DNA from: Vairimorpha necatrix
Lineage: Eukaryota
Length of the DNA stretch: 64,000 nucleotides
Assembly: GCA_036630325.1 (NCBI GenBank)
Contig: CP142736.1
Location: 806,001-870,000, forward strand
Direction: 5' to 3'
The notes under the pieces are model-generated. The model searched no databases and had not been told where the DNA came from. It was given only the letters and a program-made list of their open reading frames with translations. Every line of letters starts with the position of its first letter. Position 1 is the stretch's first letter. This document shows positions 123 through 29,927 of this stretch, one piece after another. Both the position numbers and the translations under genes were made by a program.

Positions 123-3081
123 ATGGGTAAAATGTTGAAATTTATATACCCAGTTATTAATTAGCCATTTTAATTTATCTACTAGTAATGTAGAAATAAT
201 AGCAAGATGGCCAATATTTGTTCAGAATTTTTCCTTTAAAAAAGAACTTGTTCTGATTCCGATAAATAATTAAGATAAAATTAATTTATCATTAAAATGG
301 AGAATCTTATGCCGCTCACAATTGTAAAACATATAATAAAGATTTTATAACAATGATAAGAACGTATGTGAAAAAATGAATTGAGCTGCCGATCACAAGC
401 AGTAAATTTGCATATAGATATATATATATAGCAAAAGTTTCGATTTGTGAGCGGACAAAAAAAAACAAGTGCTAAAAGTCTATCATTATATGTAGTAAAA
501 AAAGCTAGAATTAAACAATTAAAGAAATAAATATTTTTAAAAATATATTGACGACGATTAATTAAAATCCCTGATAAAATTTAATAATACACCGAAAAAA
601 TTCATATAAATCAACCATAATAACATCTAACGAAAACAATTAAGAGGAAACATTAAGAAATGTAGAAGAAATTTACTAAATATGAATATATGTATAATTT
701 ATTAGAATATAAAAACAACATTGATATTATCTTTTTTTATGCTCAAATTTTAAAAAAGAAAATCAATTGTAAGATATTAAATATTTAAAGTTCATAAAAA
801 TAGGACATTTTCATTTATCTAAATCAAGAAAAATCATCATAAGACAATCCAATCAATACCGTTACCTAAAATCATCAATCTCTCAGGTAGAGTAAATATT
901 GTAGAGTATTCCGCCTTTTGTCGAAATTTCACAAATGGCAGATTGTAACTTGCACTCTAGTTTGTTCATTTTTTCAATTAAATGAATGGTTTATATAGAA
1001 ATAAAATTTTTATTTTTGAAAATTGTAATAAACAAATGATGTTTCTTTATTTCTCCATTAGCGATCTTAAGTTTTTATAAGAATATTAGAAATTTATTTT
1101 GTTTTTATCTTTTTATATGTTTCGTAACACATAAAACGGCCGTGTAAGGAAGGCATATAAACGAGATTTAATAGCTTTTTCTTCTATATATGCCTCATTT
1201 TAGCAGTTGCATTCACAGCCAACGCACTTACGGCTCTAGTCATTTCCCATTCGACATTTTTCATTTTGTTCTCTGGGACGTATTCTCCTCTTCGGTCTAA
1301 AGTGACATAATTTTAAGTTTTCTCAGAACAATGACTGGTTTTATATTTCATACAAGAGTCGTATTTCCAAATTCTCGACTTATTTTATGTGATATTTAGT
1401 AACTTTATATCATATATTGATACTTCAACTTTCCAGAATCTATGATAACAACTCAGTAATTTCTAGAAAGATACATGTCTTAAACTTTAACCGCCCAAAA
1501 AGTCGTCCTGGACATTTTAAAAACCTTTTATATATATATTTATACTTTCTTTTTAAATAAAAAAATATCGGTCAAATTATGGTCAGTTTTTATATTGATA
1601 TTTATATTCGTCTCTAATATTGTTCTGCTTATTAGTTTACTAGGATTTGGGTATTAATTACATACGTATCTTTTTTTGACTATCAGAAATATATTATAAT
1701 AATGTTAGAAGAGAAATATCTAACTATCTTGTTTCATTCATTCACAAGATCGACTCTAAACATTTTATCACACGTGGTAGCTAAAAAATTATCAGGCTTT
1801 TAATAGTTCAGCAATAAATACATTGTACCTCTTAAGTACGAAACTTTTTTTTATCCTGAACAAATCCATATAAAAAGTATGATTTTTAATATACTAGCAT
1901 CATTTTCGATTTTTCAAATCATATAAAGAAGAGACAATAGAAGATAAAGTCCTGCACCTATAAGTCATTGTGTCCAAAAGCACACTAATTTTATTCAATC
2001 ATGTATTTGATAAAATTAGCCGATAGTTTACAAACAAAACCCTATGCTTTACTAGTTTATGATCCTTATGATGTTTTTTTTTGAATATATTTTTTCGGAA
2101 TGTCAGTGAAATTAAAAAACGTTATCAGTGTGTTAAAATTATGAACTAAATTTATACATTTGTTTTGTCTATTGCGACAGATGTTCTCTTAAATGCTGGT
2201 TCTCTCGACCAACCTGTAACACCAAATTCTTCATTCGCCATATATTTTTTTAGTTTTTATTTCATGTTTAATAATAACCTCTTGAATATGTGTTTAACAT
2301 AGTCAAATAGGTATTTTTACTTCATATTATTTTCTAGAGTGTTGTTAATATTTTATTTGCACAATATGCCATAGCAATTTGCAATATGTAATGCAACACC
2401 AACTTTTTTATATATTTAACGATAATATGCGATCTAATTTTGTTATAGTTTGAGATTTGGGCCTTTATATGCTTACTTTAGCGTTTTAATATTCTCTTTG
2501 CTCGTTTCCAGTTAAATAGATTACAAATTTTCATTGTAATAGTCTGTTTTTTTACACATATCTTCTAGTATTCACTCTCATTTCACTTAAAAATATAGAA
2601 TATTTTTAATAAAATCAAAAAATTAATTAAGAAGATAATAACATACCAAAACAGTAGTAATCTCGATAATATAGCTTCAAATGCATTTGGCCAACAAAAG
2701 ACGCCGACCTAGTTTTGATTTACTTTAAATTCACTTTACCATACTGTCAGACATTAACGAACGACTTATATAAAATTTGAGTATCATATAGTAAAAAAAA
2801 GTTTTTTTTATTTAATAAAATGTTTTTTAATGTGATTTACGAATTTACTTTATAACAAAAACATAAAAGTCTCTAAATTAGTTTAGGAATAAATATCAAG
2901 GAAATACTAATAGCACGATCTTTGCAATTACTTAATTAATTTATAATAAATATAAATCATAAAATCGTAAGTGTATATTCTCTTACTACAAGTTTAGGTT
3001 TTTATATTTTGTAATCATTTTCATTTAGTTATATTTTATGACCTGGCTAAGGACTCCGCTGTCTTTACATGCTGTTAGTGC

Positions 3082-12147: not shown

Positions 12148-13251
12148 GGTGCATCTTTAGTAACGGGCCAGAAGGTAAGGGTCCCCCCTTATAAACAAAA
12201 AATTTAGAAAAAATACATAAAAAACATATAAAAAGGCAGTTTTAATTCAATAACTTAGATAATAGATCAAGAAATCCATGATAAAAGCCGTTTATGTCGT
12301 CTTCTCGCAACATTTTCTTTCTAAACATAAACTCGTCTAGCCAAGTATCTATTTCAGACCGTTTTACTCCATGTTCTTTTGTCATCTCTGATTTTAATTG
12401 TGGCCAGACGTTTTCAATGTTATTTGTATGTATGCCATCAGTTGATAAGAATCCTATAGAATGATTAACGACATGATGATCCAAACATAAGTTCTCGGCA
12501 ACACGAGGATAACTCGGATGCCCGTCACTGTGTAGCACCGAACCCACGCCAATTTTTCCCTCTAAAGCGGCTGTAAGGCATTCAACCGTTCTATTTTCTA
12601 CTCTCGTAATGTAAAAATTTGAAGGGTTTTGTGTATCAATTATGCCTACGATCCAAACGGTGTCCCTTATGTAATCATCGGCGCTTGTAGGGGACCGTAT
12701 TTTACCCCTTCTGCAAATTACGGATTCGTCTACTTGGATAACTTGACCCGGTCCACCTATTACCATTCTATTTCGGATGGTTTCCCTAAAAATACTTCTT
12801 AACCTTGCTTTAGCCGATGAAATTGTAGCAGTAGAAATACCTAATCTCGCCATTATCTGAAAGTAAGAGTCCCTACACAGTATCATAAAGATAAGATCGC
12901 AAAAAGTAAATAATGGCAGTTTGCAGCCTTTATTAATAGCTTACCTGACATTGCATTTGTAATTCATGCAACGATACGCTCCTCTAGTAACGACTACTTC
13001 TCTTCTAGGCCCTAACTTCATTATAGAGCCACACTTGGTGCATGGTTTTTCTTCTTTTAGAACTTCTAAATACACTAAAGACTCTAAACAGGCGTCTAAG
13101 TCATTAAAAAGTCTTTGTATTAGCACAAGCTGCATTTTGGTGCTTTTCTTTAGTAACGGGCCAGAGTTTTCAAAATTTGTATTCTCCATTTAGGGGGGTA
13201 AAAATTATTTTTTAAAACTGTAAAATTCTGGCCCGTTACTAAAGATGCACC
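12148..13251 (-). mobile_element. Merlin (IS1016/IS1595-like) DNA transposon, 1104 bp
   Basis: Perfect 26-bp TIRs GGTGCATCTTTAGTAACGGGCCAGAA (12148-12173 and reverse complement 13226-13251). 8-bp TSD CAAATATT (12140-12147 and 13252-13259). Encodes a DDE transposase. Confidence 0.95.
12242..13189 (-). pseudogene. Merlin/ISXO2-like transposase with one in-frame stop
   Basis: ORFs 12941..13189 (Zn ribbon CTKC..CMNYKC) and 12242..12886 (VIQVDES, LHSDG, VNHS, HTNNIENVW motifs) share one frame. They are joined by a TAA at 12941-12943 and 18 open codons (AINKGCKLPLFTFCDLIF). Start context ttacccccctaaATG. Confidence 0.9.
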
Positions 13252-15044
13252 CAAATATTTGTATAGAAACAATTAACCCGTAAGTACATAAACTGGAAAG
13301 TTTAATTCAGATACACGTATTAAAATCATTACAGATACTTTTGCAATTTAATAGATCATAAATCTAATATTATTTACAGATATTTAAAGAAATATTATCT
13401 GATTTATATCATAGTTACTGTTCCATACAACAAAAAATTCTCAAGACAGAGTACTTTGGCTGATTTTACATCTTATTTGGTTTCCACAGAAATATTAGAT
13501 TAAGTGAGTAGAGAGTTTCATTGGTAAAGAGATATGAACCTATAATATTAAGCAAACAACCACTAAGTAGATCAATTGTGTGATATAAATATCTGTCTGA
13601 AAAAAAATTAAAATGTATGTCTTGTCATACATTTGTATCAAATTAAGTTAATTAAAATTGTTTGTAATATGTGTATGTAATTATAAAACATAACATATAG
13701 ACTTAAAATTGTTTTTTAGCATATAGTATGTAATTAGTACTTTTATTGAATCTATAATTTGTTCATAATAATTGAATTTTTATAATCATTGTACCAAGTT
13801 TAGTTTTTGTTTAGGTTTATTGTCCAGCTTTGCATTATGTATAAATTTTTCCATTTAATTGCTTTTATCAGTTAAGTGATTGACAAATTTTTTTTTGGTA
13901 GGAAATGTATAGAAGATGATCCTTTCATGTAGTATATAATTTCTCTGGTCAATGTATGATAAATTATAACTATGCGTAAAAACTCAATATAACACGTCCA
14001 GAAAACCTGCAGGTTTCAAATAATAACCACTATATCCATTTGTTGAATTTTAAAACGCGTTTTTTGTGCAAAAAAAAAACAAGTTTAGATTAAAGATCAA
14101 AACTGCAAATGGCGATATAAATATATAATGATTTCCCATCATACATGACGCTATGACTTTCATCGATTCTATATAAATTATTATTCGTTGATACCTAGCT
14201 TTGTAATTTTTTCTGAAATATGTATCATAATAAAAAAAAAATTGTTCTAGTTTTCCCTCCATTTTTCTTGTCCGGTAACAATCAAATGAACTTTTGTTGG
14301 CTTTTAAAATATATTTGCTATAATTGCGATAAGTTTGCAGTCAAAAAAAATTTGTTTTCTTTTACTTTTAAGCAAAAAGAATTTATGAAGCTTATTTTGT
14401 TGAAACAAATTTTTAGAAGATAATTTTTCTAGTCAAGACAATAAAAAAAAATCATAGATATGATTTGAAAAGGGAAAATAAATTGCTTGTGGATATTCAG
14501 ATAAATAAATAAAAACACAAAAAATTATGTAATTTTCTTGTTAAAAATTACATATATTTAGATATTAATCAAAAAGTATTGTTTTATAATTTATTAAATA
14601 ATGTCAATATGTAATATTTATCGTTATCCTGAATTTGAAATTATACAACAAAACATTATTATACTTTTCCGCTTCTGATATTTAAATAAACATGTAAGTG
14701 AAATAGGGTTGCTCTTACAGCAACCGATCATAATCAAATAATTTCAAATTAATAGGCTCTAAGTCAATTTGAGTTTTAATATAAATTTTAAATCATCTTT
14801 AATCTTATAAAGTCTGTGATATAAATATCTATCTAACGATGACATCTAAAAAAGACTAAAATGTTGGAATTTAAAGGGTTTAGTAGTAATATATCCTGTT
14901 TTCTTCTTACTCAAATCAAGAATTACTTGATGTAAAAATAAAGTAGCAGTTACTTTTTTTATGTTTAACTGTAGAATATTAGAGATTTATTTTTATTATT
15001 TGTTGAATAACTATAAATAGCTATAATATTATTAAATACCCCTT

Positions 15045-18000
15045 ATGTCTACTATTCTCAACATGGCTCCCGGTACGGAAAACTCGTATAGAAGGATGGA
15101 AGCACCCAACTTCAGTTTAAAAAGTGCACTTGTAGATTGCATGAAGTTTGAGATATATTTTAAAGACAAAAATATAATTGTAGATGAGGAAAAAATAAAC
15201 ACCGTCTTATTATTTTCAGACGATGAAGCCGCTTATTTCTTATACACAAACAAAGAAAATTTTACAAAAATTACATGGCGAACATTTAAGGGAAGAATTA
15301 AAAAATACATGGAAAGGAATGCTTTAGAGAAAATTTTAAAATCAAAACAAAAATATAATGAAGCAACAGCAACTTGGATAAAAAGAGTTCTTCCCCTGGC
15401 AAGTGCAGCCAACTTGCCTCAAGAATTTACTAAAATGCTTATTAAGAATACATGTGTTAACTTAGATTCAATGTTGATTATCCAAGAATGTTTGATGGAA
15501 CGTAATATTTACAAAGAGAAAGAAATGATACTAAAAGATAAGATGAAGTGGAATATATTAAGAAAACTGTAAAAAAGATAAGAGCTAATAGAGAGACAGT
15601 AATGAGAAGAAAAGGCGTTTCAGAGCCAAGACATAAAGAACCCATTAAACAAACTGACAAAACTGAAATGAAAAAATTTAATCAATTAGTAAAAGAGCCT
15701 ATAGATAACAACAAAAGTGATAATGTAACTGAGATAAAACTAAACAGTGTAAATATCTCCGCTTTTATGGATGAAGGATCAGATGTGAACATCATCAATG
15801 AAAAGAAGGTAGAAGAAAGAGGACTTATTGCATTACCCTGTGAACATACAACAATAAAAAACGTGTTTGGGGTAGTAACAGAACTGACTAAAAAGGTAGA
15901 GGTAACATTAAAAATCAATGATATTATACTTACTCAGGAATGTTATGTAGGAGCTTTTAAGAATTCCAATGAAGATATAGTTATCGGCAGGCCAACTTTA
16001 AATAAAGTAAAAAAACTTAAAAATGAACTTTCGGAGCTTGTAAGAAAATTTCCAAAGGTTTTTGATGGAAAGACAAGTAAAGGATACACGGATATAATGT
16101 GTGAGATAAACACACCGATAGGTAAAAAAGTTAATATAAAATACAGAAACATACCACAGGCCCTAATAAAAGGAGCACAAGAAACAATTAACAAATTATT
16201 AGAACAAGGATATATAGAATGTTCGACATCAGCTTGGTGTAATCCCATAAGACCAGTATTGAAACCAGATGGCACTGTTAGAATTACAAACAATATGCAA
16301 TTTCTGAATAACCTAGTTGAAGATAATAACTATACAATACCTGTAATTCAAAACATAGTAGATGCCACGCGAGGCAAAAGATTTTTTACAGTTATAGATC
16401 TGACAGATGCCTACTATCAAATACACCTGAAACCTGAACATAAATATAAAACCGCATTTTATTTTAAAAATAAACTATATCAATACACACGGATGCCACA
16501 AGGCTTTAAGAATTCACCTGGCATGTTTCAAATGATAATGGATAGATTACTAGAAAACCACCTTGAAACTGCTTGTTGCGTCTATTTAGACGACATAATA
16601 ATTTTTGGAACAACAGAAGAAGAACATGACAATAACCTAGCTAATGTTTTGACGATACTTGAAAAATACAACTTCAAGGTTAACCCAACTAAATTACAAT
16701 TTAAACAAGAAACTATTAAATTATTAGGAATGATGATCGATGGAAAGAAACAATATCCAATAGAACAACATCAAAAAAAGGTATTAGATTTTAAAGTACC
16801 AACTACAATTAATGAGGTACAACGATTTCTAGGATTAGCCAATTATTACAGAAGGTTTATCTCAAACCTAGCTACAATATCTGCTCCGCTTTATGAATTA
16901 CTTAAAAAGAAGAATGAGTTTATATGGAAGGAGGAGCAACAAAAAGCATTTGATATTATTAAAGAAAGAATCAACAGTAAGATTGCTAGACATATTCCTG
17001 ACTACGACAAACTCTTTATACTATCCACCGACGCATCAAATACAGGAATCGGCGCATGCCTACAACAAGAGCACAATAAAGAAATTGCAGTTGTAGATTG
17101 GGCATCAAAGAAACTGACAGATGCCGAGAAAAAATATGGAATTACAGAAAAAGAATTTCTGGCGATGGCTTGGAGTATTACACACTTTGATTATTATCTA
17201 CGAGGAAGAAAGTTTAAAGTAATAACAGATCATTCTGCAATTTTATCTATGAAGGATAAACACATTTTTGGAAACCTACGACTAGAACGAATGAGAGAAA
17301 AATTACAGGATTACGATTTCGAAATTGAATATCGAAAAGGCAAAGAACTAATAGACGCCGATGCAATTAGCAGGATTTATGAGGATCCAAAAGGAGTTGA
17401 AGAACTTAGAACTAAAAATAAAAACGTATAAATCGATTCTGATGGGAAGTGGTACTATAAAGTAAATGAAAATGAAATTAGATATTTCCCCGAAGTTCTT
17501 GAAAGAAAAGATATTTTATATAAAGCACACGAAGTAAACACCGTGCATGGTGGAATAAGTGCCATGACTTACGAATTGAAAAAGAACTATTATTGGCCAA
17601 AAATGACAGAATCGATAACAAATTATATAAAAAACTGTGAATCATGTGTCCGAAACGATCAAAAAAGCTTAGGAGGTGAAGAATTTGTAGAAACACAAAG
17701 GCCGTTAGAAATATTTGGAATGGACCTAATGTTTATTGACCAGAAGACGACACTTATGACTTGTATAGATTACTTTACACGTAGATGTATGATAAAGCCC
17801 TTAAAATCAAAGAAAGCTAGCGTTTGTAGAAATGCAATAACAGAAATGTTTCAAGAGATTGGAGTTCCTGAGAAAATTATTACAGACAATGGAAAAGAAT
17901 TTACAGCTACAACTATAAAAGAAATCATGTCTAATATGTTAGTAAATCACCATAAAATATCTATAGACAAGCATCAGTCTAATGGTAGAATAGAAAGATT

Positions 18001-18412
18001 ACATAGGAAAATTTGGCAAGCATTAAAAAAAATAGAATGTAATCAAAAGGAAACATTAGAAGAAATTTTATATGATGTAGAAAATAAAATTAATAATACA
18101 TTTAATAGAGCAATAGGTTGTACCCCGAACGAAGCATGGGATGATCCTGATAATAAAACATTGAAAGAATTGAATAAAAAAGATTCAAAATACGGAAAAG
18201 AATTTAAAAAACTTCCACGTGAAAAATTTAGAATTGGAGAACAAGTGTTTATTCAACAAAACCCAATGCAGGCACAGGACAAGCTCAACGATAAATACAT
18301 TGAAGAGGGAATGATACATACTGTGTTAGAAAATGACTCTTACTTAGTAAAAGTAAACGATAAACTGATCAAAAAGAGCCATTCTCAGCTCAAATCAGTA
18401 CCAACTATATGA
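15045..18412 (+). pseudogene. Element A gag-pol polyprotein, disrupted
   Basis: Gag-like 15045..15572. Frame change plus TAA at 15539-15541. Protease-like FMDEGSDVNII, RT YLDD, RNase H TDAS/EFLA/TDH. In-frame TAA at 17429-17431, then open frame into the integrase (H..H..C..C, TDNG, SNGRIER) ending at 18412. Confidence 0.9.
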
Positions 18413-18460
18413 TTGCTTGTATAAAACCAAAATACATAAATTTTTATTTTTTACCCTCAA

Positions 18461-19017
18461 ATGGAAACAGAAACTAGTCAAAGAACTAAAAGTATATGTA
18501 GATCAACTTTAAATATGGAAATAAGACTCTTGAACCTGCAGTCCAATCTAAAAGACGAAGAAAAATTCAATTATATAATTAGGAATGCAAGTACAGATTT
18601 GGGAGAGTATATATTACAAGAAGGTTTACAACATGGAAGGGCATCGAAAAATGTGCCGAAGACCAAAAACTCACAGCTGACACCGTTTTAAAAGTATGTG
18701 CAAACACAAGGAAAAGCACTGAAACAGTAACTGAATATCTAGGCAGACTTGGAAAGGACTTAAAACGGCTTGGAGCCACGGATAAAATGATAATAAAATA
18801 TTTAAGCCTTACTGTTGCTATGGGAAATGTGGAAGTCCACATGATGTTAAGCCTACACACTGATATGGAGGAATTTTTGGCCCACACTTCTAAAATACTT
18901 ACAAGCAGAACAAGAAGGAATAAGCTCACCAATAAGAAAAATTGCAGTTTTTGTAAACAACAGGGACATGAATCAGAAAAATGTTTCAAAAAGCCAAATT
19001 TTAAAAAAGATCAGTAG
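18461..19017 (+). pseudogene. Element A second ORF: gag-like protein with C-terminal CCHC zinc knuckle (one frameshift near 18628)
   Basis: Own start context aaatttttattttttaccctcaaATG. Switching to the -1 frame near 18628 gives an open frame TTWKGIEKC...ETVTEYLGRLGKDL...CSFCKQQGHESEKC (CX2CX4HX4C) to TAG at 19017. Confidence 0.75.
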
Positions 19018-21694
19018 ACCGCAGTCGTATTTTCGGGCGGGATGTTGAATAACTATAAATAGCTATAATATTATTAAATACCCCTTATGTCTACTATTCT
19101 CAACATTATTGTTACTATTATTTTAATACACATTACATTTATTTTATTGTGTATGTTTCTTTTTTTTATCAGTTTATTACTTTGATTTAACACTATATTT
19201 AGTAGATTAAATTATGAAAATTTTCAAAAGTCAAATAAAATGTTTTGATCAAATATTCGTTCTAAAAAAATTTAACTTTTTATCAAGTGATCCTTCAATT
19301 TAAACTAAGTGTCGTTGTAGAAAATATTATTTTTAAAACTAAAATTAAATAAATTCAAAAAAATTTGCTAATCAAAACTATACATATATACTCAATAATA
19401 TTAATGACGATATAATTATCGAAAATCATGTAAAATTATACTGGACACGAAAAACAATACACACGAACCATGTCGTTTCCCCCTAATAATTATTTGATAA
19501 ATTGAGAATATATACATGTTTTTTATTTACTTTATGCGGGTTATTTGTTACAAACAAAAATAAATATATAAAATCTTGTGCCATTTGATATTAAACTGAG
19601 TGACATAAAAAATGAAGCATAAAACACATCATTTATTAGGTCAAAGCAAAAGAAACCACCACCAAGGTTCTTTATTTTTTTGACAAATATTATATTGGAC
19701 CTAGTTCAATCTGTTCAAGATTATCTGTGCAGGTTTTTTAAAAACAAAATGCTCAATTAAGTATATGTTTAATGTATAATAAATGTGATTATCTAATATT
19801 GTTTCCGGGATTCCTTTGCCACAGTATTAATCTCATTTAATTGCCTTCGTAAGTTATTTTTTCTTTGATCATGATTTACCTTCATTATCGCTGAACTGAT
19901 TTTTATTCTACTATTTTGTTTCAGTTTAATGTAATTTATCTTTGTATCCATATAAACTCTTATTGCATAATTTAAATTATAACTATATTAACATACAGGG
20001 ATATATCGAGAAATTTACGTTTTTGTTTATTTTAAGAAAAAAACGAGGAATGTTTATTCGTTAAATTATTAATGATATATTTTTTTCTATCAAAACATGA
20101 ACGACAATCGCTTCGACCCTATTATATTTTTTGCAAAACATTCGGCTTTATTATATCAACTAGTCTGAGTGATTTATAATTCCATTGAATATAATTAAAA
20201 AATATATAAAAAATAAGGGGTTTATTAAGAAACAAAAAATTGAGGGGTTCATGAAATTATTAAATAACTTTGAATGAGTACGTTATAAAAAAATAATACC
20301 GGCGTTTTCGGGTTAAGAGATCCACCCTAGAAGAGACCATGGATCTCTTAAACTAGTGTAAAATAATTTCTTTTGAAAAAGTCGCAAAATTTGACTTTTA
20401 ATGTGGATCTCTTAACCGGGTAGTAACATTTTTAATGAATTTAATACAAAAAAATTATTGTAAAATCAAAAGTTTCACGTATTTTTAATAGCTTGCAAGT
20501 ACAAAACACCACATAGAAATAAGAATGAAAGATTGCAGTGTTAGATTTATGTGGGCTGACCCATACAATATCTATTTATGCATTATGATTTTATTATTCA
20601 ATAAACGTATGCAGAAAATTTATCTTTGGGTGTAAATTTTTGATTGTGACTAAAGTATATTCAATTAATATCATATTTTTTTTTGTAAATTATTAGTTTA
20701 AATTTTGAAATTGTTTATCTTATATTATTTTCTTTTATGATAATTACCGTAATATCTTAAGCTTCGAATATCCGTTTTTATGTATTGAAATAAATTGTTC
20801 GTCAATTTAATTTTAAGTTTGTCAAATGTATAAATAAGAATCTATGTGCTTATAATCAGTTAATTTATTGTGTAAAACAATAATTGGCAAAATTAATATA
20901 ATGAATAATAGAAGATTTTAGTAAGTCTCGGCCATAACTCATAATAAATAGAGGGGTTGGAATAACCAATACTAAATTATTAAAAAAAAAAAAAATACTC
21001 ACGTAAATTTCATTTTTATTTTTTTTTACTAATTATTTTTAACCTTTTAACACAATATCCCATTGAGGTTTTGTTGGATATTTTACAAACAACAAAGTGT
21101 AGTTCTTCGATAATTTTTTTAGTTCAAATATGAATATTTTACGGTATATATTTCATATGCCACTGCATGGGATGTGAATTCAGAACAACTTCACCAAATA
21201 TTATAATCTTAAAATTTCCTAACAAATAACAAGTTTTTTTTACATACAATCATCATAAAAAGAAGTAAACAAAAAATTATGCCTTGAGCGCAAATAAGGC
21301 CTGCAATGCCAATATTTTGTGTAAAAAAACATAATAGAAGTATCTGGAGGTGTATAAGTCTTTGGAGAGAGCCAAAAATAACATATGAGTTATTAGAATA
21401 AAAATTTTATACATATTAATAATGCTTTCCGTCAAAACACTTACAAAACAATAAATTCTTTTATAAACAAGAAAAAAGAGATTTAGTACTGATCATAAAA
21501 AGGATATATGACTGCACACTTTCCAATTTATAAAATTCATATTAATTTTAATTTTTAATACTAGAAAAAAAACAATTATTACATGTAGAAAGTGTTTTTA
21601 AATAAAAAAAACTAATAATATTAAATATAACAGTGATTGAAGATTAAAATTATCTAGATACTAAAGAAAACGTAATAATAAATTGAGATTGATA

Positions 21695-21976: not shown

Positions 21977-22863
21977 GTGGGGTAAATTTTTTTTTTAAAA
22001 AAACATCGATAAATTCTTTTTGGGTAAATGAAAAAATTTATATTTTAAAAAAAAAATTTCTCGTTAAAATGTATTATTACTCTTCAGAAGTTGAATAAAT
22101 TCTTTCTGTGTGTTTATAAGATTTATAGCAAAAAGTTTATTATGATAAAATTTCAAAGGGAAATAATGTCATTAGAAGTTGAAAAAATTAATCAAGATCG
22201 ACTTTATATAGTCAACCAATAGAGTTTATAAGGTAATAATCTAAATAATATTTGTATAAATATACCATGCTCGCAAAGCAATTATTTAATGTGTCATGGT
22301 ATTTAAGACCAAAATAAAGAAGTGAATTGGATTTTTGAAACTACAAAACTAAAGATTCTGAAGGAATATCCGGCCTGTTACTCTTAGAGGTTTTTGAATT
22401 CTGTTTTCGGAATCGAAGACGAGAATATAACCAAGAAGATAAAGGAAAGTTAAATGATAGATCTATGAGTATTTTAGCAGCCAATACACTTTAGAAGCAA
22501 AAGAGTTATGAATGAAAAGATATGATTTTTGTTTTTTTACTTTGCAAGTAAAAATTTTTTTACACTTACACAAATCTCTGATATGCCAATTCCCGTTATT
22601 AAAACAGGACTCCGTATATTTACGACATCTAAAATAATAAGATAAGTCATTTTTTACAGTATTATGATGGCAACTTGTTAAAAAACATTTCCAGAATAAA
22701 ATTAGATACAAATAAAAAAAACATGATTTATAGATAAAATTTTTGTCGTAGGAGCTCAAGGCTTCTACATATTTGACACGTTTGACATTTCTCAATATTT
22801 TATTATTTAAAACTTTTATATTTTACCCCCAAGCAAAATGGAAGGAAGAGAAGAAAAAACTAA

Positions 22864-25800
22864 TGTTATATATCCTTATTATTTTTACCCCTCATTATGG
22901 AAAATAAACACATGGGGGCGATACCAGAAAATGGGTCTACAAAGGAGGACCGTGGCCAAGAGGCTAGAATATTATTAAAAGAGGTTAAAAGGATTGTTTA
23001 TGAGTTGTTTTTAGAGAAAATTGATGAGTGTGGATTTAAATTAGAAATTTTTAGGAGAGGTTCTATTTTATTGAGAAATTTTATTGTTGAGAGGATCTCG
23101 CAAGAGGGTAGTTGGAAGGAAATTGAGGAAAAATTAGAGTTGCTAGCTATTCAGGAGGAAAAGGAACAAGTGAGAAAAAAAGAATTTGAAGAGTTGTCCC
23201 TAGCGTTATGGGCTAAATTTGAGGAGAAGAATAAGTTGTCTCGTGAGGAAAATAAAAAGAATATGCGTTGCTACAATTGTGGGAAGTTAGGCCATAGTGT
23301 TAGATTTTGTAGGGGAATGAGGCGAGATTCTGAAGACAGAAGAAATAAAAGTAGTTTTAATTATGTTGGTAAATGTAAAGTGCAATTAGACTTAGGGGGT
23401 AAATGTGATGACGATTCCAATTCGGACAAATGTGATTATTATAATGTTGATGGTGGAAAACGTAAGAAGAAAAATTTAGGGGATATACAAGATTATAGCA
23501 AAAGGGACAATAATAAGAGAGTTCTGTTGAGAAGGGATGTAAGAGGCATCGCGTATTTAGAGGAGATTATTTCACGGGTAGGAGGAAGAGAGGATGAAGA
23601 TATTAGTTTTTGTAAGGTTGAAAAATGTATTATCAAGACTCAAGAAGGCAAGAAAGTTGTTAAAAAAGGGCAGGCTATAGCTCAGGCTTTGTTGAAGAAG
23701 ACGGAAGATTATATTAATAGTTTGGAAAGAAGAAAGATAATTAGAAGGTCGACATCTGACTGGAGAAATCCCATTAGAGCGATTGAGAACCCGAATGGTG
23801 ATATAAGATTAGTAAGTAATTTAATTGCTCTTAATGACATTGTAGAGAAGGATCCTTATGAGTTAACTAGGATAAGAGATGTTATTAGAAGTACACAGGG
23901 ATCTGAATTTTTTACCGTGATAGATCTAAAGGAGGGGTTTTATAGTATTGAGATTGAAGAGAAGGATAGGTTTAAGACGGCTTTTGAGTTTAATAAAAAG
24001 GTATACGAGTGGAATTCGATGGTCATGGGGTTTAAAAACTCTCCGCAGATATTACAAAGAATAATGAATGGGATTTTTGAAAAATTTATTGGTAAGGGAA
24101 TCGAAATTTATATGGACGATATTGTGATTCATAGTAAGACAAGAGAGGGTCACGACAAATTGTTGAAAGAGGCTGTGGATATATTAGAGGAGAATAATAT
24201 GAAAATTAATTTGGCTAAGGTTCAATTATGTAAACGAGAGGTGATGTTGTTAGGAGTAACAGTTAATGGCAAGGAGATACTGCCATCTGAAATAAAGCAA
24301 AATGAAGCGTTAGAATTTCCCAAACCGGGGTGTGTATCAGATGTTAGGAAGTTTCTTGGGCTGGCTGGATGGTTTAGAAATCATATTGATAATTATGCAA
24401 AACGTACATTGGCGTTGACGGATTCTCTTAAAGGACGAGGAAGTAATTGGAAATGGACAGAAGAAATGGAAAAAGAATATATTAGTTTAAGGGAAGTGAT
24501 TAGGGATTTAAAAGGTTTAGCAATTGTTAATTATAATAAGGAATTTTTGTTACGCACGGATGCGAGTAATGTTGGAATGGGTGCTGTTTTAATGCAGGAA
24601 GATGATCAAGGTAATTGGGTACCAGTACAGTGGGCATCAAAAAAGTTTACGCCTACGGAAACGAGATATGGAATCAGTGAGAAGGAGATGTATGCAGTCT
24701 TTTGGGGAATTAAAAAGTTTGAATATGAACTACGCGGAAGAAGATTTAGGGTAGAAACTGATCATAAGGCATTGATCGAGATTAGAAATAAACCAGCATT
24801 TAACAATAGTAGAATTAACAGGTGGATTGAAAAGATTCAAGAGTTCGACTTTAGCATTGAATATAGAGAGCCTAGTACCATGGTTGTAGCAGATGCACTG
24901 AGTAGGGTACATGAAAATGAGAAAACGCTAATGAATAAGGAGAGAAGTATTAAACAGGCACAGGGTAAATGGGACAAGCATGTTAAAGTTGTTGATGGGA
25001 AGGAAATTTGGGTATTTGACTCTGGTAGAGAAGCGGAGATTCCAAAGAAAGAATTGCGTGAAGGTTTAATTGTCAATGCTCATGAAAATTTGGGACATAG
25101 AAGTTTAGGATCAGTGTACTATGCAATGAAGTTTGAATTTTATTGGCCGGGTATGAAGAAGGATATCGAGGATGTTTTAAAGAAGTGTGAAGTTTGCCAA
25201 ATATATAATAGGAAAAAGAGTGGTGGTTGTGATTTTGTTAGTTCAAGATTTTATTTGGAAAAGGTTGCTTTGGATTTGATTGAGTTTAGAGATTTAGGGA
25301 AATATGTGTTGGTCGTGATTGATTATTATACTAGGATCGTTTGGGGAAAAGTAATAGAGTACAAACGCGGAAGCTCGGTTGTAGGGTTTTTAAAACAGTT
25401 GTGTGGATCAGGAATGAAACCGGTAGAAATAATTACTGACAACGGTAAAGAATTTAGTAATGAATATATGAGGAATTGGTGTTCAGAGGAAAATGTATTA
25501 CATAGGAAAGTAAGCGTAGAAAGTCATAGAAGTAATGGAAGAGTGGAAAGGGTAATAGGAACCATAAGAGAAGGAATATTGAAAGATGATGCTGTGGATT
25601 TTGAAGCCAAGGTTAATAGATGTATATGGCGTTATAATAACAGCTATCATGAAGGGTTGAGATGTACACCGTTTGAGGCCTCAAGAGACGAAACGGGCCA
25701 TGATATGATCGAGAATGGGCCTGAAGGATTTTATAGTAGGAGGTTTGTGGCTCGCAAAAGAGAGAAATTCTATAAAGGTCAGAGAGTTAGGGTAGCGAAG

Positions 25801-26046
25801 AAAGAGAACTTATCGGGTTGTAGTAAGTATGAGAAAGGAAGGTTTTTAGGATATGGTGTTATCAAGGAAGTTTGCGGAGGTGACTCGTCTTAGTTAGTTT
25901 GGAAAATGGTAGGATCGTGAAAAAGCGGCATTATGATTTAAAAGGTCTGCTTGGGATTAATGAGTTCTAGTATGAGACTACCGTCTTGGAGGGGGGATGT
26001 TATATATCCTTATTATTTTTACCCCTCATTATGGAAAATAAACACA
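22864..26046 (+). mobile_element. Ty3/Gypsy LTR retrotransposon C (3183 bp, 49-bp LTRs) nested in the 5' LTR of B
   Basis: Identical LTRs 22864-22912 and 25998-26046 (TGTT...CACA). TSD ACTAA (22859-22863, 26047-26051). PBS TGGGGGCGATACCAG at 22913. PPT GGAGGGGGGA. Confidence 0.95.
22897..25893 (+). CDS. Element C single polyprotein: short Gag + CCHC knuckle, RT, RNase H, integrase; no recognisable protease
   Basis: CYNCGKLGHSVRFC, YMDD, TDAS, HHCC and TDNG/SNGRVER motifs. A probable 1-nt deletion near 25888 truncates the tail: the alternate frame reads LVSLENGRIVKKRHYDLK..., ends at 25970, and matches the C-terminus of element A. Confidence 0.88.
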   Translation: MENKHMGAIPENGSTKEDRGQEARILLKEVKRIVYELFLEKIDECGFKLEIFRRGSILLRNFIVERISQEGSWKEIEEKLELLAIQEEKEQVRKKEFEELSLALWAKFEEKNKLSREENKKNMRCYNCGKLGHSVRFCRGMRRDSEDRRNKSSFNYVGKCKVQLDLGGKCDDDSNSDKCDYYNVDGGKRKKKNLGDIQDYSKRDNNKRVLLRRDVRGIAYLEEIISRVGGREDEDISFCKVEKCIIKTQEGKKVVKKGQAIAQALLKKTEDYINSLERRKIIRRSTSDWRNPIRAIENPNGDIRLVSNLIALNDIVEKDPYELTRIRDVIRSTQGSEFFTVIDLKEGFYSIEIEEKDRFKTAFEFNKKVYEWNSMVMGFKNSPQILQRIMNGIFEKFIGKGIEIYMDDIVIHSKTREGHDKLLKEAVDILEENNMKINLAKVQLCKREVMLLGVTVNGKEILPSEIKQNEALEFPKPGCVSDVRKFLGLAGWFRNHIDNYAKRTLALTDSLKGRGSNWKWTEEMEKEYISLREVIRDLKGLAIVNYNKEFLLRTDASNVGMGAVLMQEDDQGNWVPVQWASKKFTPTETRYGISEKEMYAVFWGIKKFEYELRGRRFRVETDHKALIEIRNKPAFNNSRINRWIEKIQEFDFSIEYREPSTMVVADALSRVHENEKTLMNKERSIKQAQGKWDKHVKVVDGKEIWVFDSGREAEIPKKELREGLIVNAHENLGHRSLGSVYYAMKFEFYWPGMKKDIEDVLKKCEVCQIYNRKKSGGCDFVSSRFYLEKVALDLIEFRDLGKYVLVVIDYYTRIVWGKVIEYKRGSSVVGFLKQLCGSGMKPVEIITDNGKEFSNEYMRNWCSEENVLHRKVSVESHRSNGRVERVIGTIREGILKDDAVDFEAKVNRCIWRYNNSYHEGLRCTPFEASRDETGHDMIENGPEGFYSRRFVARKREKFYKGQRVRVAKKENLSGCSKYEKGRFLGYGVIKEVCGGDSS

Positions 26047-26070
26047 ACTAATAAACATTTTAATATCGAC

Positions 26071-29000
26071 ATGGCGACAGTGGCAAAAGCAATTAGTGAA
26101 TTTAATGGCGATCGAGGCGAAGACACTGAAATGTGGTTAAAGAAGGTGAACATCTTGGCTCAGAGTGCCGGACTTTCAGAGAACTCCATTTTAGGGTTAA
26201 TCATAATTAAACTGACAGGAGTTGCCCAGACATATTTGATATCTTTGACCAATGGGAACATTGCTAATATTACCTTAGGGAGTTTAATAATAAGTTTAAA
26301 AAAACGGTTTGGTAACCAAACGAATACAGATGAGATTCTTGATCATTTTTTAGCAATTAAATCAGTGAATTCCTACGAAGAATATTCAGAACTACTCAAA
26401 GAAGCCACCACTTTATTCGAAAGAGACTGCATTGCACTTAAATCACTAATAAGGATGACTATATCTAAGTCTCCGCGGGAACTTAAAACATTGCTGTATC
26501 AATATTCATGCTGCGCTTCAAACTGGAATAACTTTGTCCAACAAGCGGAGGAGGCGGCCTGGATGGCTTTTCCCGAGAGAATCAACAATAGATTAGCCTC
26601 TACTGGAACTAAGACATTATATCAGAAAAGAGAAAGACTGCCTCAGAATATTTAAGGAAAAAAATTGTTCTGCATTATTCACAAGCAAGGGAGCCACACA
26701 ACAGATGATTGTTTCATTGTTAAGCAATTGGAAGATAAAGGCTGGAGAAAAGGGAAATCAGCAAATGCGTTAGAAGAAATAAATAAAGCCGATAGCAACA
26801 TTGACCAAGAAAATAAAGACTTCAACGTTTACACTTCTAATTCTCTTAGTTATAAAAGAAACCCTTTCTTTATATATTCCACCCTTTCAAAAGCTGCCCC
26901 TCACCTGACACTACTAGATACAGGTGCCGACATCTCTTTGATAAACATAAATCAAATATTAGATAAAAATAAAATAACATCAACAAGTGCTAAAATTAGA
27001 TCGGCTTCGGGCTCCTTCATCAATATTATAGGTGAAATTAAGAACCTCAGATTGAGAGTATTCGATGAAGAAATTATATTCTCCCCGTTAGTATGTAAAG
27101 GTTTACCTGACTATTCTATTCTCGGAACGGATGTTATTATAAAATACCCACGCTTGGTCCAAAAAATTCTCCGAAATTTCTTACCTTCAACGAAAATAAA
27201 TTGTATTCCATTAACGCAGGAGATTGGAACGAAAAGTAAAACGGACCTTACAGAAAGAAAGATTAGGTCTAATACTATTTGTAAAAGTGAGAATATGGGT
27301 CAACCAATCACTTCAGAAATTCGTCCCAAAGAGAACGAAATAATTACTAAATTTTCCGGATGCTTTGGAGAAACCATCGCACCAGAACCCATTAAAGGTG
27401 CAACATTGCATTTCATTGACACAGGAGACCATCCTCCTATAAACCAAAAAAACTATCGAATCCCGATACATTATGAACAAGAAATTTCTGAAGACATTTG
27501 AAGGAATCTACAATTGGGTGTTTTAATAGAATCTAATAGCCCATGGTGTTCAAGACTCGTCCCCGTTCAAAAGCCTGATAAATCTTTAAGATTATGCATT
27601 GACTTCCGAGCTCTGAATAAAATAACAATAAGAGATAAATCCCCGTTACCCCGAATTGATGAAATACTAGACAGACTAGCTGGGGCAAAGACGTTTTCGA
27701 CCTTAGATGCAACATCTGGATACTACCAGATCGGTATGAATGAATCAGATAAACAGAAAACAGCGTTTGCATGGAAGGGCGGGCTATATGAATATAACAG
27801 AATGCCTTTCGGATTATGTAATGCTCCCGCTACTTTTCAAAGAGCTATGGATAAACTTATCGGAAATCCATGTAATGATTTTGTTATCCCGTATCTAGAC
27901 GATATAATCATATTCTCAAAAAACGAAAAAGAACATGGGAAACATCTTCTCATTGTTTTAGAGAAATTAAAAGAAACAGGAATAGTGCTAAAAAAATCAA
28001 AATGCACATTTTTTAAAGACGAAATTAAAATACTAGGCAATATTGTTTCAAGGGGATACTTAAAACTTGATCCCACGAAGATTGATACAATTCAAAAATA
28101 CCCATTTCCAGAGAACCTAAAAAGCTTACGATCATTCTTGGGGTTAGTGAATTACTGCCGCGAATATGTAGCATCTTATGCATAGTTAACAGGACCATTC
28201 TTTAGTCTTCTTAAGGGAGAAACGAAAAATAGTGTAAAAAGAGTACACTGGTCAGAAGATTTACAGATAAAGTTTTCAAAGTTAAAGCAAGCTCTTGCCG
28301 GCGAGATAAAATTGAAACAACCAGACTTTAAAAAAAAATTTATCTTAATCACAGACGCGTCTGAAATTGGAATTGGTGCAGTCCTTGCACAAGCTGACGA
28401 TAATGGTGTAGAAGAGGCCATCTCCTTATTTAGTAAAAGATTCGACGATTGTCAAATGAATTACTCAGTTACAGATAAAGAACTTCTGGCTGTCGTTAAA
28501 GGCATAAATAACTTTAGACATTACCTTTTGGGGAAAGAATTTACGTTAAGAACTGACCATAAAGCGCTAACGTACTTATGGGAATCAAAAAATCCTACAA
28601 GTCGGATCCTAAGATGGTCAATGATGTTACAAGAATATAAATTTGACGTTGAATACATAAAGGGAGAAGACAATATTGCTGACGGCTGTAGTAGAATATT
28701 TAACAAGGAAATAAGAATTTCAAGTATCATTAAAGATTTTTCAAAAGAAGAAAAAGAGGAAATACTTAAAGCATATCATATAGAAACTGGGCATGGATCT
28801 ATTAACAACATGAAATTCGCAATCAAAGGAAAATATTTCTGGGAAGACATATATAAAGACATCGAAAAGCTGGTTACTGAATGTGTTATCTGTTTAAAGA
28901 ACGGAAATAAAATAAGAAATACAAAACACAGGGTAATTGAAACTTATAACCATAATGAACTTTGGGAGGTTGATTTGATAGGACGGATCCCATATAATGG

Positions 29001-29751
29001 CACTAACCATTTCATTTTAGTAGCAATCGACCACTACAGTAAATGGATAGAGACAAAACATTTGAAAAATAAGGAAGCTGAAACCATTAGAGATTCTATT
29101 GAAGAGCTAATAATCAAGAAACATGGTACTCCAAAAACAATTTTGTCGGATTGCGGGCTCGAGTTTAAAAACAAACAAATAACGGATCTAAAAGCAAAAT
29201 ATGGGTTTGAATGGAAATACTCATCACCAGAACACCATAATACAGTGGGATGTGTTGAGAGAGTGAACCAAACACTTTGGATAAATTTAAAAAAACTCAC
29301 CAATTACGGAGAATCTTCATGGAGAAGCGCATTAGAAAAAGCAACACACGCTGTGAATGTTTCATTTAATAGAGCCATAGGAACTTCCCCATTTATTTTT
29401 AAATACGCGAGATCCCCTGATTTTGAGATTGACAAGAAATTTGATAGGAAGCCCATAAAATTCCAAAGAATGTCTCTGACTAAGAAGAGAAATGAAAATT
29501 TTGCTAAATATAGAAAAAGCATAGAAAAGGGTACGATAACGGCCCCGTCAAATTTTTCAATTGGTGATAAAGTTCTTATATACAGAGAAAACAAAAATAA
29601 TAAAATGAAAGCTAATTGGTCTCCTGGTTATGAAATAACGGATAGAATACTACCGGATGGGTTTATGGTTAAAAATAACAAAAGTTTAATTAGAGTTAAT
29701 AAAGCTCATATCAAACAAGACCTTTCTTTTGGGGGGAGGGAGATGTCGTAG
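26071..29751 (+). pseudogene. Element B gag-pol single frame with three in-frame stops
   Basis: All track ORFs from 25951 to 29751 share one frame, broken by TAA 26653-55, TGA 27499-501 and TAG 28183-85. Motifs: CIIHKQGSHTTDDC knuckle, LLDTGAD protease, YLDD RT, RNase H, integrase. The original ATG at 22838 in the 5' LTR is now separated by element C. Confidence 0.9.
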
Positions 29752-29927
29752 GAGCTCAAGGCTTCTACATATTTGACACGTTTGACATTTCTCAATATTT
29801 TATTATTTAAAACTTTTATATTTTACCTCCAAGCAAAATGGAAGGAAGAGAAGAAAAAACTAATAAACATTTTAATATCGACAATTTTATTGCAAAAATT
29901 AATCTATATTCGTATTAATATTTATTT

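What the first reader, a model, noticed from the sequence alone, without database searches (positions are those of the whole stretch)
22864..26046. Minimal 3.2-kb, apparently protease-less LTR retrotransposon with 49-bp LTRs
Seen: a single 998-aa ORF runs from a short (~120 aa) Gag and CCHC knuckle through a D/K/N-rich linker straight into the RT pre-domain. There is no D(T/S)G protease motif and little room for one. RT, RNase H and integrase look intact, the LTRs are identical and the TSD is perfect, so it transposed in this form. Its coding strand is conspicuously G/T-rich compared with the A/C-rich neighbours. Established: Ty3/Gypsy elements need an aspartic protease for maturation. Inference: it either uses protease in trans from a helper (its RT shares NPIR..P.G..R...N and WASKK signatures with element A) or functions as an unprocessed polyprotein.
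Basis: partly seen in the sequence, partly recalled or inferred. Interest (0 to 1): 0.72.

Follow-up and report, generated by a model that had tools for sequence, protein, structure and literature searches.

The report
Compact protease-less microsporidian LTR retrotransposon
This is a slightly damaged copy of a 3.2-kb jumping gene from a widespread microsporidian family that has lost the protease all its known relatives carry and has shrunk its terminal repeats to about 50 bases, so it can test whether such elements need a protease at all.

Summary
The element is real. It spans 22864-26046 (3183 bp) and has identical 49-bp TG..CA LTRs and a 5-bp ACTAA duplication. It sits inside the 5' LTR of an older element, whose intact 3' LTR shows the empty site. 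One ORF encodes a helical domain, a CCHC knuckle, a disordered linker, RT, RNase H and integrase.

No aspartic protease was found by Pfam, by a profile of the sister clade's protease, by hhalign, by AlphaFold2 plus fold search, or in other reading frames. The same methods did find proteases in neighbouring elements.

This is a family trait, not a one-off deletion. A 52-row RT clade of ~1000-aa proteins from Nosema, Vairimorpha, Enteropsectra and Nematocida lacks the protease. Its sister clade keeps a retropepsin fold. A member from Anncaliia algerae ("Aalg retro L", 3127 bp, 50-bp LTR) was catalogued in 2014 without comment on the protease.

This copy is defective. A one-base frameshift removes 27 conserved C-terminal residues, and an otherwise invariant RT lysine is changed.

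The strand is G-rich and C-poor, not G/T-rich, and relatives share this.

How the family does without a protease is untested. My favoured reading is that the polyprotein works uncleaved. The scan had not noted this family on other DNA.

The parts
22859..22863 (+). 5' copy of the target-site duplication, ACTAA
   Evidence: The empty site with a single ACTAA is at 29859-29863.
22864..22912 (+). 5' LTR, 49 bp, TG..CA. It holds a T-rich stretch (22876-22887), a CCCC motif (22888-22891), an in-LTR ATG (22897) and AATAAA (22903-22908).
   Evidence: The layout matches the microsporidian 'T-rich + CCC just upstream of ATG' signal described in PMC2803860.
22913..22927 (+). PBS-like TGGGGGCGATACCAG directly after the LTR. 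The family-conserved Met codon is formed by the last LTR base plus TG (22912-22914).
   Evidence: M6 is nearly invariant. The primer tRNA was not identified.
22897..25893 (+). Single polyprotein ORF of 998 aa, cut short in this copy
22942..23262 (+). N-terminal helical, Gag-like domain (residues 16-122): three short helices and one ~50-residue helix
   Evidence: AlphaFold2 pLDDT is 87-94 in the 10-residue blocks covering residues 21-110. There are only weak, tied matches to the Arc C-lobe and the RSV CA-CTD, Z 5.3-6.0.
23266..23310 (+). CCHC zinc knuckle (residues 124-138)
   Evidence: Pfam zf-CCHC E=0.0041, below its cut-off. C125, C128, H133 and C138 are invariant. There are local fold matches to HIV and RSV NC knuckles, all non-significant (Foldseek E 1.1-4.3, prob 0.25-0.54).
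23311..23532 (+). Variable, predicted-disordered linker (residues 139-212) where relatives outside the family have the protease. It contains an NKxxxNY motif and a basic KRKKK patch.
23533..24453 (+). Pre-RT helix and reverse transcriptase (Pfam RVT_1 at residues 294-456; YMDD present)
24455..24846 (+). RNase H (residues 520-650)
25045..25506 (+). Integrase zinc-binding domain (residues 717-772) and DDE core (residues 792-870)
25888..25889 (+). One-base frameshift private to this copy
   Evidence: All 4 of 4 runs have one more base here (table 4). P0001 reads on for 27 aa.
25890..25969 (+). Out-of-frame remainder of the integrase C-terminal module (..LV..GRIVKKRHYDLKG..), up to the family's stop codon
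25988..25997 (+). Polypurine tract GGAGGGGGGA abutting the 3' LTR
   Evidence: The same layout is seen in L003 and in element A.
25998..26046 (+). 3' LTR, identical to the 5' LTR
26047..26051 (+). 3' copy of the target-site duplication, ACTAA

Best explanation
SHOWN (my confidence about 0.9). This is a copy of a conserved, microsporidia-wide lineage of very compact Ty3/gypsy-type LTR retrotransposons.
- Members are about 3.1-3.2 kb long with LTRs of about 39-50 bp.
- The single ORF starts inside the 5' LTR and runs over the primer-binding site.
- The lineage lost the retropepsin domain once, after it split from a sister clade that still has the fold.
- This copy landed in the 5' LTR of an older element and made a 5-bp duplication.
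- It has since picked up a frameshift and several replacement changes, so it is probably no longer autonomous.

INFERRED (the figure below covers this part).
- The family replicates without any element-encoded protease.
- The ~120-kDa polyprotein acts uncleaved, or at most trimmed by host enzymes. The knuckle would hold the RNA that encoded it, the long N-terminal helix would multimerise the protein, and the fused RT-RNase H-integrase would copy and insert the DNA.
- The 49-bp LTR works as a minimal microsporidian promoter (T-rich stretch plus CCC, start a few bases upstream of the ATG) with an AATAAA. That leaves an R region of only about 15-20 bases for strand transfer.
For: Anatomy of the element.

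Insertion and mobility:
- The empty site is present in the same window.
- 2 of 4 laid runs hold a contig that skips 3188 bases.
- Contigs of runs X2 and X3 show several different flanks at both LTR edges (table 7).
- Parisot et al. count 19, 20 and 45 copies of the A. algerae member in three strains (Table S2).

Protease absence:
- The precomputed Pfam lists of P0001-P0060 hold no protease family. Such families appear only from P0061 down.
- 14 of 14 aligned members have no protease family at E<=1.
- Of 41 rows with both landmarks (the window ORF and 40 proteins), 2 have a D[TS]G motif between the knuckle and the RT N-terminus. One of those sits 37 aa before the RT.
- Profile searches were negative.
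- There is no other frame of 81 aa or more inside the element.
- The N-terminal model has no beta domain, and the fold searches were empty.

Positive controls with the same tools:
- Pfam finds RVP in window 26665-27498 (2.2e-5) and Asp_protease_2 in 48540-50162 on the minus strand (1.2e-10).
- Element A's protease-like piece folds at pLDDT 84.9 and gives 30 retropepsin hits at E<=1e-3.

Phylogeny:
- The C family is one clade, 98 SH-aLRT over 52 rows and 100/94.
- It is sister to the A clade (100/98), with P0058 (a DSG protease plus a knuckle) next out (100/100).

Long persistence under constraint:
- 28 of 51 family proteins are 976-1188 aa long.
- RT, RNase H and integrase catalytic columns are invariant.

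Family traits at the DNA level:
- L003 has 39-bp LTRs spaced 3124 bp apart and a TTATA duplication.
- Aalg retro L has a 50-bp LTR, an ORF at 32-3049 and a total length of 3127 bp.

Promoter reading: PMC2803860 (abstract and passages) reports 5' UTRs under 7 nt and a CCC motif just upstream of the ATG, preceded by a T-rich signal.

From recalled knowledge, tested by no call: RT-integrase fusions can be active (the avian retroviral RT beta subunit), and hepadnaviral P protein and LINE ORF2p work without a retroviral protease.
Against: - There is no protein, RNA or transposition data. No listed holder run is on record as RNA.
- Every studied Ty3/gypsy element needs its protease (established knowledge).
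- Protease-bearing elements lie in the same window (B and D, plus A with an altered D-x-G motif), so a helper is at hand.
- A small conserved motif, NKxxxNY, sits about 12 residues after the knuckle. It could be a cleavage site, which would favour processing by some protease.
- Multimerisation of the N-terminal helix is untested, because the complex predictor was not available.
- AATAAA lies only 4 bases before the LTR end. The position of the poly(A) site, and so the extent of R, is guesswork.
- This copy itself is defective.
Confidence: 0.5

Rival explanations
1. The family is non-autonomous for proteolysis. Its polyprotein is cut by the retropepsin of protease-bearing Ty3/gypsy elements living in the same genome, so it is a streamlined parasite of those elements.
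For: - Protease-bearing elements lie within the same 64 kb.
- The sister lineage, element A, keeps a retropepsin fold.
- A conserved NKxxxNY motif in an otherwise variable linker could be a cleavage site.
- Recalled precedent: plant elements that lack one gene and rely on a partner family.
Against: - The state has lasted through divergence down to 44% identity across distant genera, with full-length ORFs. That would require a compatible helper in every host.
- There are no conserved columns at the domain borders between C138 and C244.
- The nearest protease-bearing relatives have a non-canonical D-[E/R/P/A]-G in place of D-T/S-G, so their own activity is uncertain.
Confidence: 0.25
2. A host (microsporidian) protease processes the polyprotein. 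The element has handed maturation over to the cell.
For: The long disordered linker is accessible. It holds a conserved short motif.
Against: No candidate enzyme was examined, because no genome of the organism is held. There is no precedent known to me among LTR retrotransposons.
Confidence: 0.12
3. A cryptic or novel protease is hidden in the N-terminal domain, in the linker or in another reading frame.
For: None found. Only weak Peptidase_A17 hits in 3 of 14 members (E about 0.05).
Against: - Those hits lie at residues 483-615, in the RT connection/RNase H region, and are below the cut-off.
- The N-terminal domain is all-helical and the linker is at low confidence.
- No column is invariant between C138 and C244.
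- The linker can be as short as 28 aa.
- No alternative frame reaches 81 aa.
- Profile tests were negative.
Confidence: 0.03
4. This is a one-off internal deletion derivative or an assembly artefact of a normal protease-bearing element.
For: None beyond the short length.
Against: - The same structure is in contigs of 4 of 4 laid runs.
- It is also in dozens of ~3.0-3.3-kb contigs from other sources.
- A consensus from another genus, published in 2014, has the same structure.
Confidence: 0.01

Closest known systems
'Aalg retro L' consensus of Anncaliia algerae (Parisot et al. 2014, PMC4202319; I saw Table S1, File S1 and Table S2)
   Same: - 50-bp LTR beginning TGTTATATAT, with AATAAA and a CCC motif followed by ATG.
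- ORF from base 32, inside the LTR.
- Total length 3127 bp.
- LTR ends in ACA and is followed by TGG.
- By eye, the N-terminal protein has the same GQE.. helix, a coiled stretch, a CCHC knuckle and an NK..S.Y motif.
   Different: - It comes from a different genus and its PBS sequence differs.
- It was not put into my alignments or trees.
- The paper's main text never mentions protease (0 occurrences). It comments only that microsporidian elements have one polyprotein ORF.
Ty3/gypsy LTR retrotransposons (Metaviridae), e.g. Ty3 and Tf1/Tf2
   Same: - TG..CA LTRs, a 5-bp duplication, a PBS starting TGG and a PPT.
- Knuckle-bearing Gag-like N-terminus.
- RT-RNase H-integrase order with an H2C2 zinc domain.
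- Single gag-pol ORF, as in Tf1 (recalled).
   Different: - No retropepsin.
- No recognisable capsid domain.
- LTRs are roughly 3- to 10-fold shorter than the 105-272 bp listed for most A. algerae elements.
- Total length is 3.2 kb.
Sister clade in the same genome: element A (window 15001-19105) with P0051, P0054 and P0055
   Same: - Mini-LTR of 63 bp with a CCC motif followed by ATG.
- A Met codon spanning the LTR/PBS junction.
- A 5-bp duplication.
- RT sister group, support 100/98.
   Different: - It keeps a ~100-aa retropepsin fold, but with D-[E/R/P/A]-G-S in place of D-T/S-G.
- The polyprotein has no knuckle.
- Proteins are about 1090-1163 aa.
Retroelements that work without a retroviral protease (hepadnavirus P protein, LINE ORF2p, DIRS/Ngaro); named from recalled knowledge
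   Same: The RT-containing protein is used without retropepsin maturation. This is what the family would work like under my best reading.
   Different: They are not related lineages. None combines LTRs, a PBS and PPT, and a DDE integrase in this way.

Membership tests
Ty3/gypsy (Metaviridae) LTR retrotransposon | Direct LTRs with TG..CA ends, flanked by a short target-site duplication | tested here: met
   49-bp identical LTRs, an ACTAA duplication and the empty site.
Ty3/gypsy (Metaviridae) LTR retrotransposon | PBS next to the 5' LTR and a polypurine tract next to the 3' LTR | tested here: met
   TGGGGGCGATACCAG at 22913 and GGAGGGGGGA at 25988. The primer tRNA could not be identified: the only tRNA in the window is Arg, and no genome is held.
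Ty3/gypsy (Metaviridae) LTR retrotransposon | pol order RT - RNase H - integrase | tested here: met
   Pfam RVT_1 at 294-456, RT_RNaseH at 520-650, Integrase_H2C2 at 717-772 and rve at 792-870.
Ty3/gypsy (Metaviridae) LTR retrotransposon | Retropepsin (D-T/S-G aspartic protease) between Gag and RT | tested here: not met
.
Ty3/gypsy (Metaviridae) LTR retrotransposon | Gag with a capsid fold plus a nucleocapsid knuckle | tested here: inconclusive
   The knuckle is present. For the capsid there are only tied weak matches to the Arc C-lobe (Z 6.0, rmsd 2.5, 64 aa) and the RSV CA-CTD (Z 5.3) within helical noise. The Atlas feature neighbours are small Gag/knuckle clusters at 0.89-0.94.
Compact protease-less microsporidian family ('Aalg retro L' type) | Total length about 3.1 kb with LTRs of about 40-50 bp | tested here: met
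   3183 bp with 49-bp LTRs here. L003 has LTR spacing of 3124 bp and 39-bp LTRs. Retro L is 3127 bp with a 50-bp LTR.
Compact protease-less microsporidian family ('Aalg retro L' type) | ORF starts inside the 5' LTR and reads through the PBS | tested here: met
   ATG at LTR position 34. The retro L ORF starts at base 32 of a 50-bp LTR.
Compact protease-less microsporidian family ('Aalg retro L' type) | RT groups with the ~1000-aa proteins of Nosema, Vairimorpha, Enteropsectra and Nematocida | tested here: met
   A 52-row clade at 98 SH-aLRT and 100/94. Retro L itself was not in the tree.
Non-autonomous LTR elements (LARD, TRIM, TR-GAG) | No RT or integrase coding capacity | tested here: not met
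   RT, RNase H and integrase are encoded.

The most novel reading that the evidence does not exclude
This family is a naturally minimal, fully autonomous LTR retrotransposon. In this reading, a single uncleaved knuckle-RT-RNase H-integrase protein and ~50-bp LTRs with an R region of about 15-20 bases are enough for the whole cycle. Proteolytic maturation and a true capsid shell would then not be obligatory for LTR retrotransposition.
Probability: 0.4. Interest if true: 0.8.

Novelty: new variant of a known kind. Interest (0 to 1): 0.6.

Why it matters
Protease-driven maturation is treated as a fixed part of the Ty3/gypsy and retroviral life cycle.

A lineage that dropped the protease, kept intact ORFs while diverging across distant microsporidian genera, and still leaves fresh insertions makes that assumption directly testable. 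It may also mark the lower size limit of an autonomous LTR retroelement, at about 3.1 kb with 39-50-bp LTRs.

The stepwise series found here gives a concrete path for the loss. The outgroup has DSG, the sister clade has D-x-G, and the family has no protease domain.

Microsporidia lack genetic tools, so a 3-kb self-contained integrating element with a 30-base promoter could also be of practical interest.

Sequences of this type have sat in catalogues since 2014. The new point is the reading, not the existence of the sequences.

Tried and rejected
- **Own genome:** none is held. Copy census, tRNA set and helper co-occurrence could not be done.
- **RNA evidence:** no RNA holder is listed. The four laid runs are contigs only, so transcript ends could not be seen.
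- **Complex prediction** on two copies of residues 15-145: the queue was full, and the tool was declared unavailable. No result.
- **PBS 14-mer scan of genome contigs:** 120+ chance hits in bacterial genomes, nothing useful.
- **The search of protein representatives** with the N-terminal profile: 5918 hits at E<=1e-3, 428 at <=1e-10 and 24 at <=1e-30. The list is swamped by multi-knuckle proteins and fragments, so it was not used.
- **Loci L001, L002, L004, L005:** no terminal repeats of 25 nt or more were found in L001, L002 or L004 (L005 was not scanned). All four loci were used only for composition.
That is not significant. Element B gave z = -2.66.
- **Fold of the N-terminal domain:**
  - Foldseek against PDB and BFVD gave 0 hits at E<=1e-3.
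  - The VIA wide search gave a top Z of 6.4, within the range the tool calls common for helical models.
- **Strand-biased mutation:** I considered reading the excess of window-G versus other-A differences this way. I dropped it because base composition plus an ordinary GC-to-AT bias can give the same ratio.
- **Literature:**
  - Searches found no text describing a protease-less LTR retrotransposon in microsporidia or elsewhere. One search was a search for the CCC-motif paper, not for this question.
  - Xu et al. 2006 (N. bombycis Nbr elements) is not held. A passage in PMC2474625 quotes it as saying 'nearly all' Nbr elements have five domains including protease. An exception may therefore already be in print, and I could not see it.
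  - The figure of element structure in Parisot et al. is not held.
Full report
**1. The observation**

The region 22864-26046 is a complete LTR retrotransposon of 3183 bp.
- Two identical 49-bp repeats (TGTTAT...AACACA) lie at 22864-22912 and 25998-26046. None of 100 shuffles of the window gave any match.
- ACTAA flanks both sides.
- The element sits inside the 5' LTR of an older element, B. B spans 22744-29883 and has 140-bp LTRs.
- B's 3' LTR (29744-29883) is uninterrupted and carries a single ACTAA at 29859-29863. The empty target site is therefore visible in the same window.
- Contigs in 2 of the 4 public runs laid on the region skip exactly 3188 bases, which is the element plus one ACTAA (table 5).
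- Directly after the 5' LTR comes TGGGGGCGATACCAG, which looks like a primer-binding site. Directly before the 3' LTR comes GGAGGGGGGA, a polypurine tract.

**2. Coding content**

One ORF (22897-25893, 998 aa) starts at an ATG inside the LTR.
- Pfam gives a CCHC knuckle (residues 124-138, weak), RT (294-456), RNase H (520-650), the integrase zinc domain (717-772) and the integrase core (792-870). It gives no protease family even at E<=1.
- No other frame on either strand of the element is open for more than 80 codons.

**3. Is a protease hidden?**

I aligned the ORF with 13 full-length relatives (A1).
- No column is invariant between the last knuckle cysteine (C138) and C244 at the RT N-terminus.
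- The stretch between the knuckle and the pre-RT helix is 28-103 residues long in the 14 sequences, with mean pairwise identity 0.22.
- 41 rows have both landmarks (the window ORF and 40 proteins among P0001-P0057). The knuckle-to-RT gap is 54-133 residues (one has 193). A D[TS]G motif occurs in that gap in 2 of the 41, and in one of those it lies 37 residues before the RT.
- Pfam on all 14 members finds no retropepsin family. Weak Peptidase_A17 hits in 3 of 14 lie at residues 483-615, over the RT connection/RNase H region, and are below the cut-off.
- AlphaFold2 on residues 1-292 with a 12-row alignment gives a confident helical domain: helices at 16-39, 44-54 and 57-66, a long helix at 73-122, then the knuckle. 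Residues 145-255 have pLDDT under 50 and no beta-rich domain.
- Foldseek against PDB and BFVD gives 0 matches at E<=1e-3. Only the knuckle matches retroviral NC locally.

**4. Positive controls**

The same Pfam scan finds proteases in neighbouring elements:
- RVP in 26665-27498 (2.2e-5).
- Asp_protease_2 in 48540-50162 on the minus strand (1.2e-10).

Element A (15001-19105) has a stretch, FMDEGSDVNII...IVIGRPTL, that is missed by Pfam when the whole ORF is scanned at E<=0.001.
- Scanned alone, it hits four aspartic protease families over their full length at E 1e-4 to 7e-3, all below their cut-offs.
- It folds at pLDDT 84.9.
- It gives 30 retropepsin matches at E<=1e-3, including Ddi1 RVP and the EIAV, FIV and HIV proteases, with probability 1.00 and TM 0.55-0.70.

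An HMM of that region from five sequences finds proteases in distant outgroups (P0068 at 1.6e-7, P0105 at 7.6e-5, and others). Its best hit in the compact family is E=0.31, on the RT N-terminus of P0004. hhalign between the two profiles gives probability 0.1%. The absence is therefore not a sensitivity problem.

**5. A family trait**

The search for homologous proteins returned 124 proteins.
- The top ~57 are 42-98% identical. Most are about 1000 aa, and many sit on contigs of 3.0-3.3 kb.
- The sources' own names are Nosema granulosis, Vairimorpha necatrix, Vairimorpha apis, Enteropsectra breve and Nematocida ausubeli. One MAG is labelled Clostridium.
- None of P0001-P0060 carries a protease Pfam family. 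Such families start at P0061, at identities under 30%.

I built an RT-RNase H tree.
- The quick tree used 112 of 124 rows. The other 12 were dropped for covering fewer than 330 profile positions.
- It puts the window ORF in a 52-row clade (SH-aLRT 98).
- That clade is sister (98) to element A plus P0051, P0054 and P0055.
- P0058 is next out (100).
- All 18 rows with a Pfam protease are on the other side of one branch.
- A careful tree of 41 of those rows, chosen by hand, gives 100/94 for the compact family, 100/99 for the A clade, 100/98 for the pair, and 100/100 with P0058.

The protease state changes in steps:
- P0058 has a knuckle and a DSG protease.
- The A clade keeps the fold but has D-[E/R/P/A]-G-S.
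- The compact family has no protease domain.

One loss on the stem of the family is the simplest reading. The rooting is by midpoint only.

**6. DNA-level family traits**

- A degenerate metagenome relative, L003 (52% protein identity), has 39-bp LTRs (TGTTG..GACA, 1 mismatch) spaced 3124 bp apart. It has a TTATA duplication, a TGG-initiated PBS and a PPT.
- Parisot et al. 2014 (PMC4202319) list 'Aalg retro L' in Table S1 as complete, with a 50-bp LTR, an ORF at 32-3049 and a total length of 3127 bp.
- The start of that sequence in File S1 has the same layout as here. Its translated N-terminus has the same features by eye. Table S2 lists 19, 20 and 45 copies in three strains.
- The paper's main text has 0 occurrences of 'protease'. 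It remarks only on the single polyprotein ORF.
- G-richness and C-poverty are shared. The element is G .275 and C .087 (third codon positions G .263, C .072). L001-L005 are G .25-.27 and C .09-.11. Other ORFs in the window are G .13-.22 and C .10-.18. The cause is unexplained.

**7. State of this copy**

- All 4 of 4 laid runs carry one more base behind 25888 (table 4).
- With that base the frame reads on as in P0001 (1024 aa, 98% identical) through a C-terminal module conserved in 13 of 13 relatives.
- Nine substitutions separate the window copy from the contigs of at least 3 of the 4 runs. Six are replacements and three are silent.
- One replacement puts N where 13 of 13 relatives have K, in the RT fingers.
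- The copy looks like a once-active insertion that is now decaying.
- Different flanks at both LTR edges in contigs of X2 and X3 show several insertion sites (table 7).

**8. How it probably works**

*Shown:*
- The LTR contains TTATTATTTTTACCCCTCATT followed by ATG.
- In microsporidia, 5' UTRs are under 7 nt. A CCC motif preceded by a T-rich or AAATTT signal sits just upstream of the start codon. This is from PMC2803860, where I saw the abstract and passages, including N. ceranae examples.

*Inferred:*
- The first ~30 bases of the LTR are the promoter (U3).
- Transcription starts just before 22897.
- AATAAA at 22903-22908 (26037-26042 in the 3' LTR) directs 3' end formation at or just beyond the LTR end. 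That leaves an R region of about 15-20 bases.
- The nearly invariant Met at alignment position 6 is made from the last LTR base plus the TG of the PBS. The PBS is therefore translated.
- Without a protease, the polyprotein most likely acts uncleaved. The knuckle and basic linker bind the RNA, the ~50-residue helix multimerises the protein, and the fused RT-RNase H-integrase does the rest.
- The basic KRKKK patch may serve nuclear entry.
- None of these inferred steps has been tested.

*Rivals:*
- A helper protease from co-resident elements.
- Processing by a host protease.
- The small conserved NKxxxNY motif after the knuckle is the best hint that some cleavage might occur.

**9. Comparison and novelty**

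By every tested feature except the protease, this is a Ty3/gypsy-type element. The capsid fold is inconclusive.
- It belongs to a compact microsporidian family that has been catalogued as sequence.
- As far as my seven full-text searches reach, the family has not been described as protease-less or as having mini-LTRs.
- Xu et al. 2006 could not be read. A secondary quotation, 'nearly all' Nbr elements have five domains, leaves room for an earlier mention.
- The scan's own records hold nothing on this family.

**10. Verdict**

- The mechanism remains open.

Noticed in passing
window 15001-19105 (+): Element A is a 4105-bp relative with 63-bp LTRs, a TTATT duplication, and the PBS-like sequence TGGCTCCCGGTACGG right after the 5' LTR. 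It has a retropepsin fold whose catalytic triplet reads D-E-G. About 630 bp between the integrase end (18412) and the PPT carry a separate CCHC-containing ORF (18583-19017). The polyproteins of its clade lack a knuckle.
   Followed up: partly
window 22744-29883 (+): Element B has 140-bp LTRs that are 99% alike. It has a weak Retrotrans_gag hit, an RVP protease, and an in-frame stop in the RT (28183-28185). It is the host of the nested insertion.
   Followed up: partly
window 46452-50162 (-): Element D is a fourth Ty3/gypsy element with a clear protease (Asp_protease_2, 1.2e-10). It sits on a long branch in the RT tree.
   Followed up: no
window 23000-26000; L001-L005: GC skew is +0.46 to +0.57, and G is about three times C, also at third codon positions. 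Relatives from metagenomes share this, but the other elements in the window do not. The cause is unknown.
   Followed up: partly
window 12245-12886 (-): An ORF with a DDE_Tnp_IS1595 domain (3.4e-13). This is the Merlin-type transposase family that is abundant in microsporidia.
   Followed up: no
runs X1-X20: 20 runs from 13 studies, under a dozen different organism labels, hold part of the stretch. Most hold about 0.4-0.5 of the sampled words. Only four runs were laid.
   Followed up: partly
P0022: A 911-aa member of this eukaryotic family is filed under a Clostridium MAG on a 3024-bp contig. It is probably a binning contaminant.
   Followed up: no
window 52001-53000: GC drops to 0.14, the lowest in the window.
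   Followed up: no
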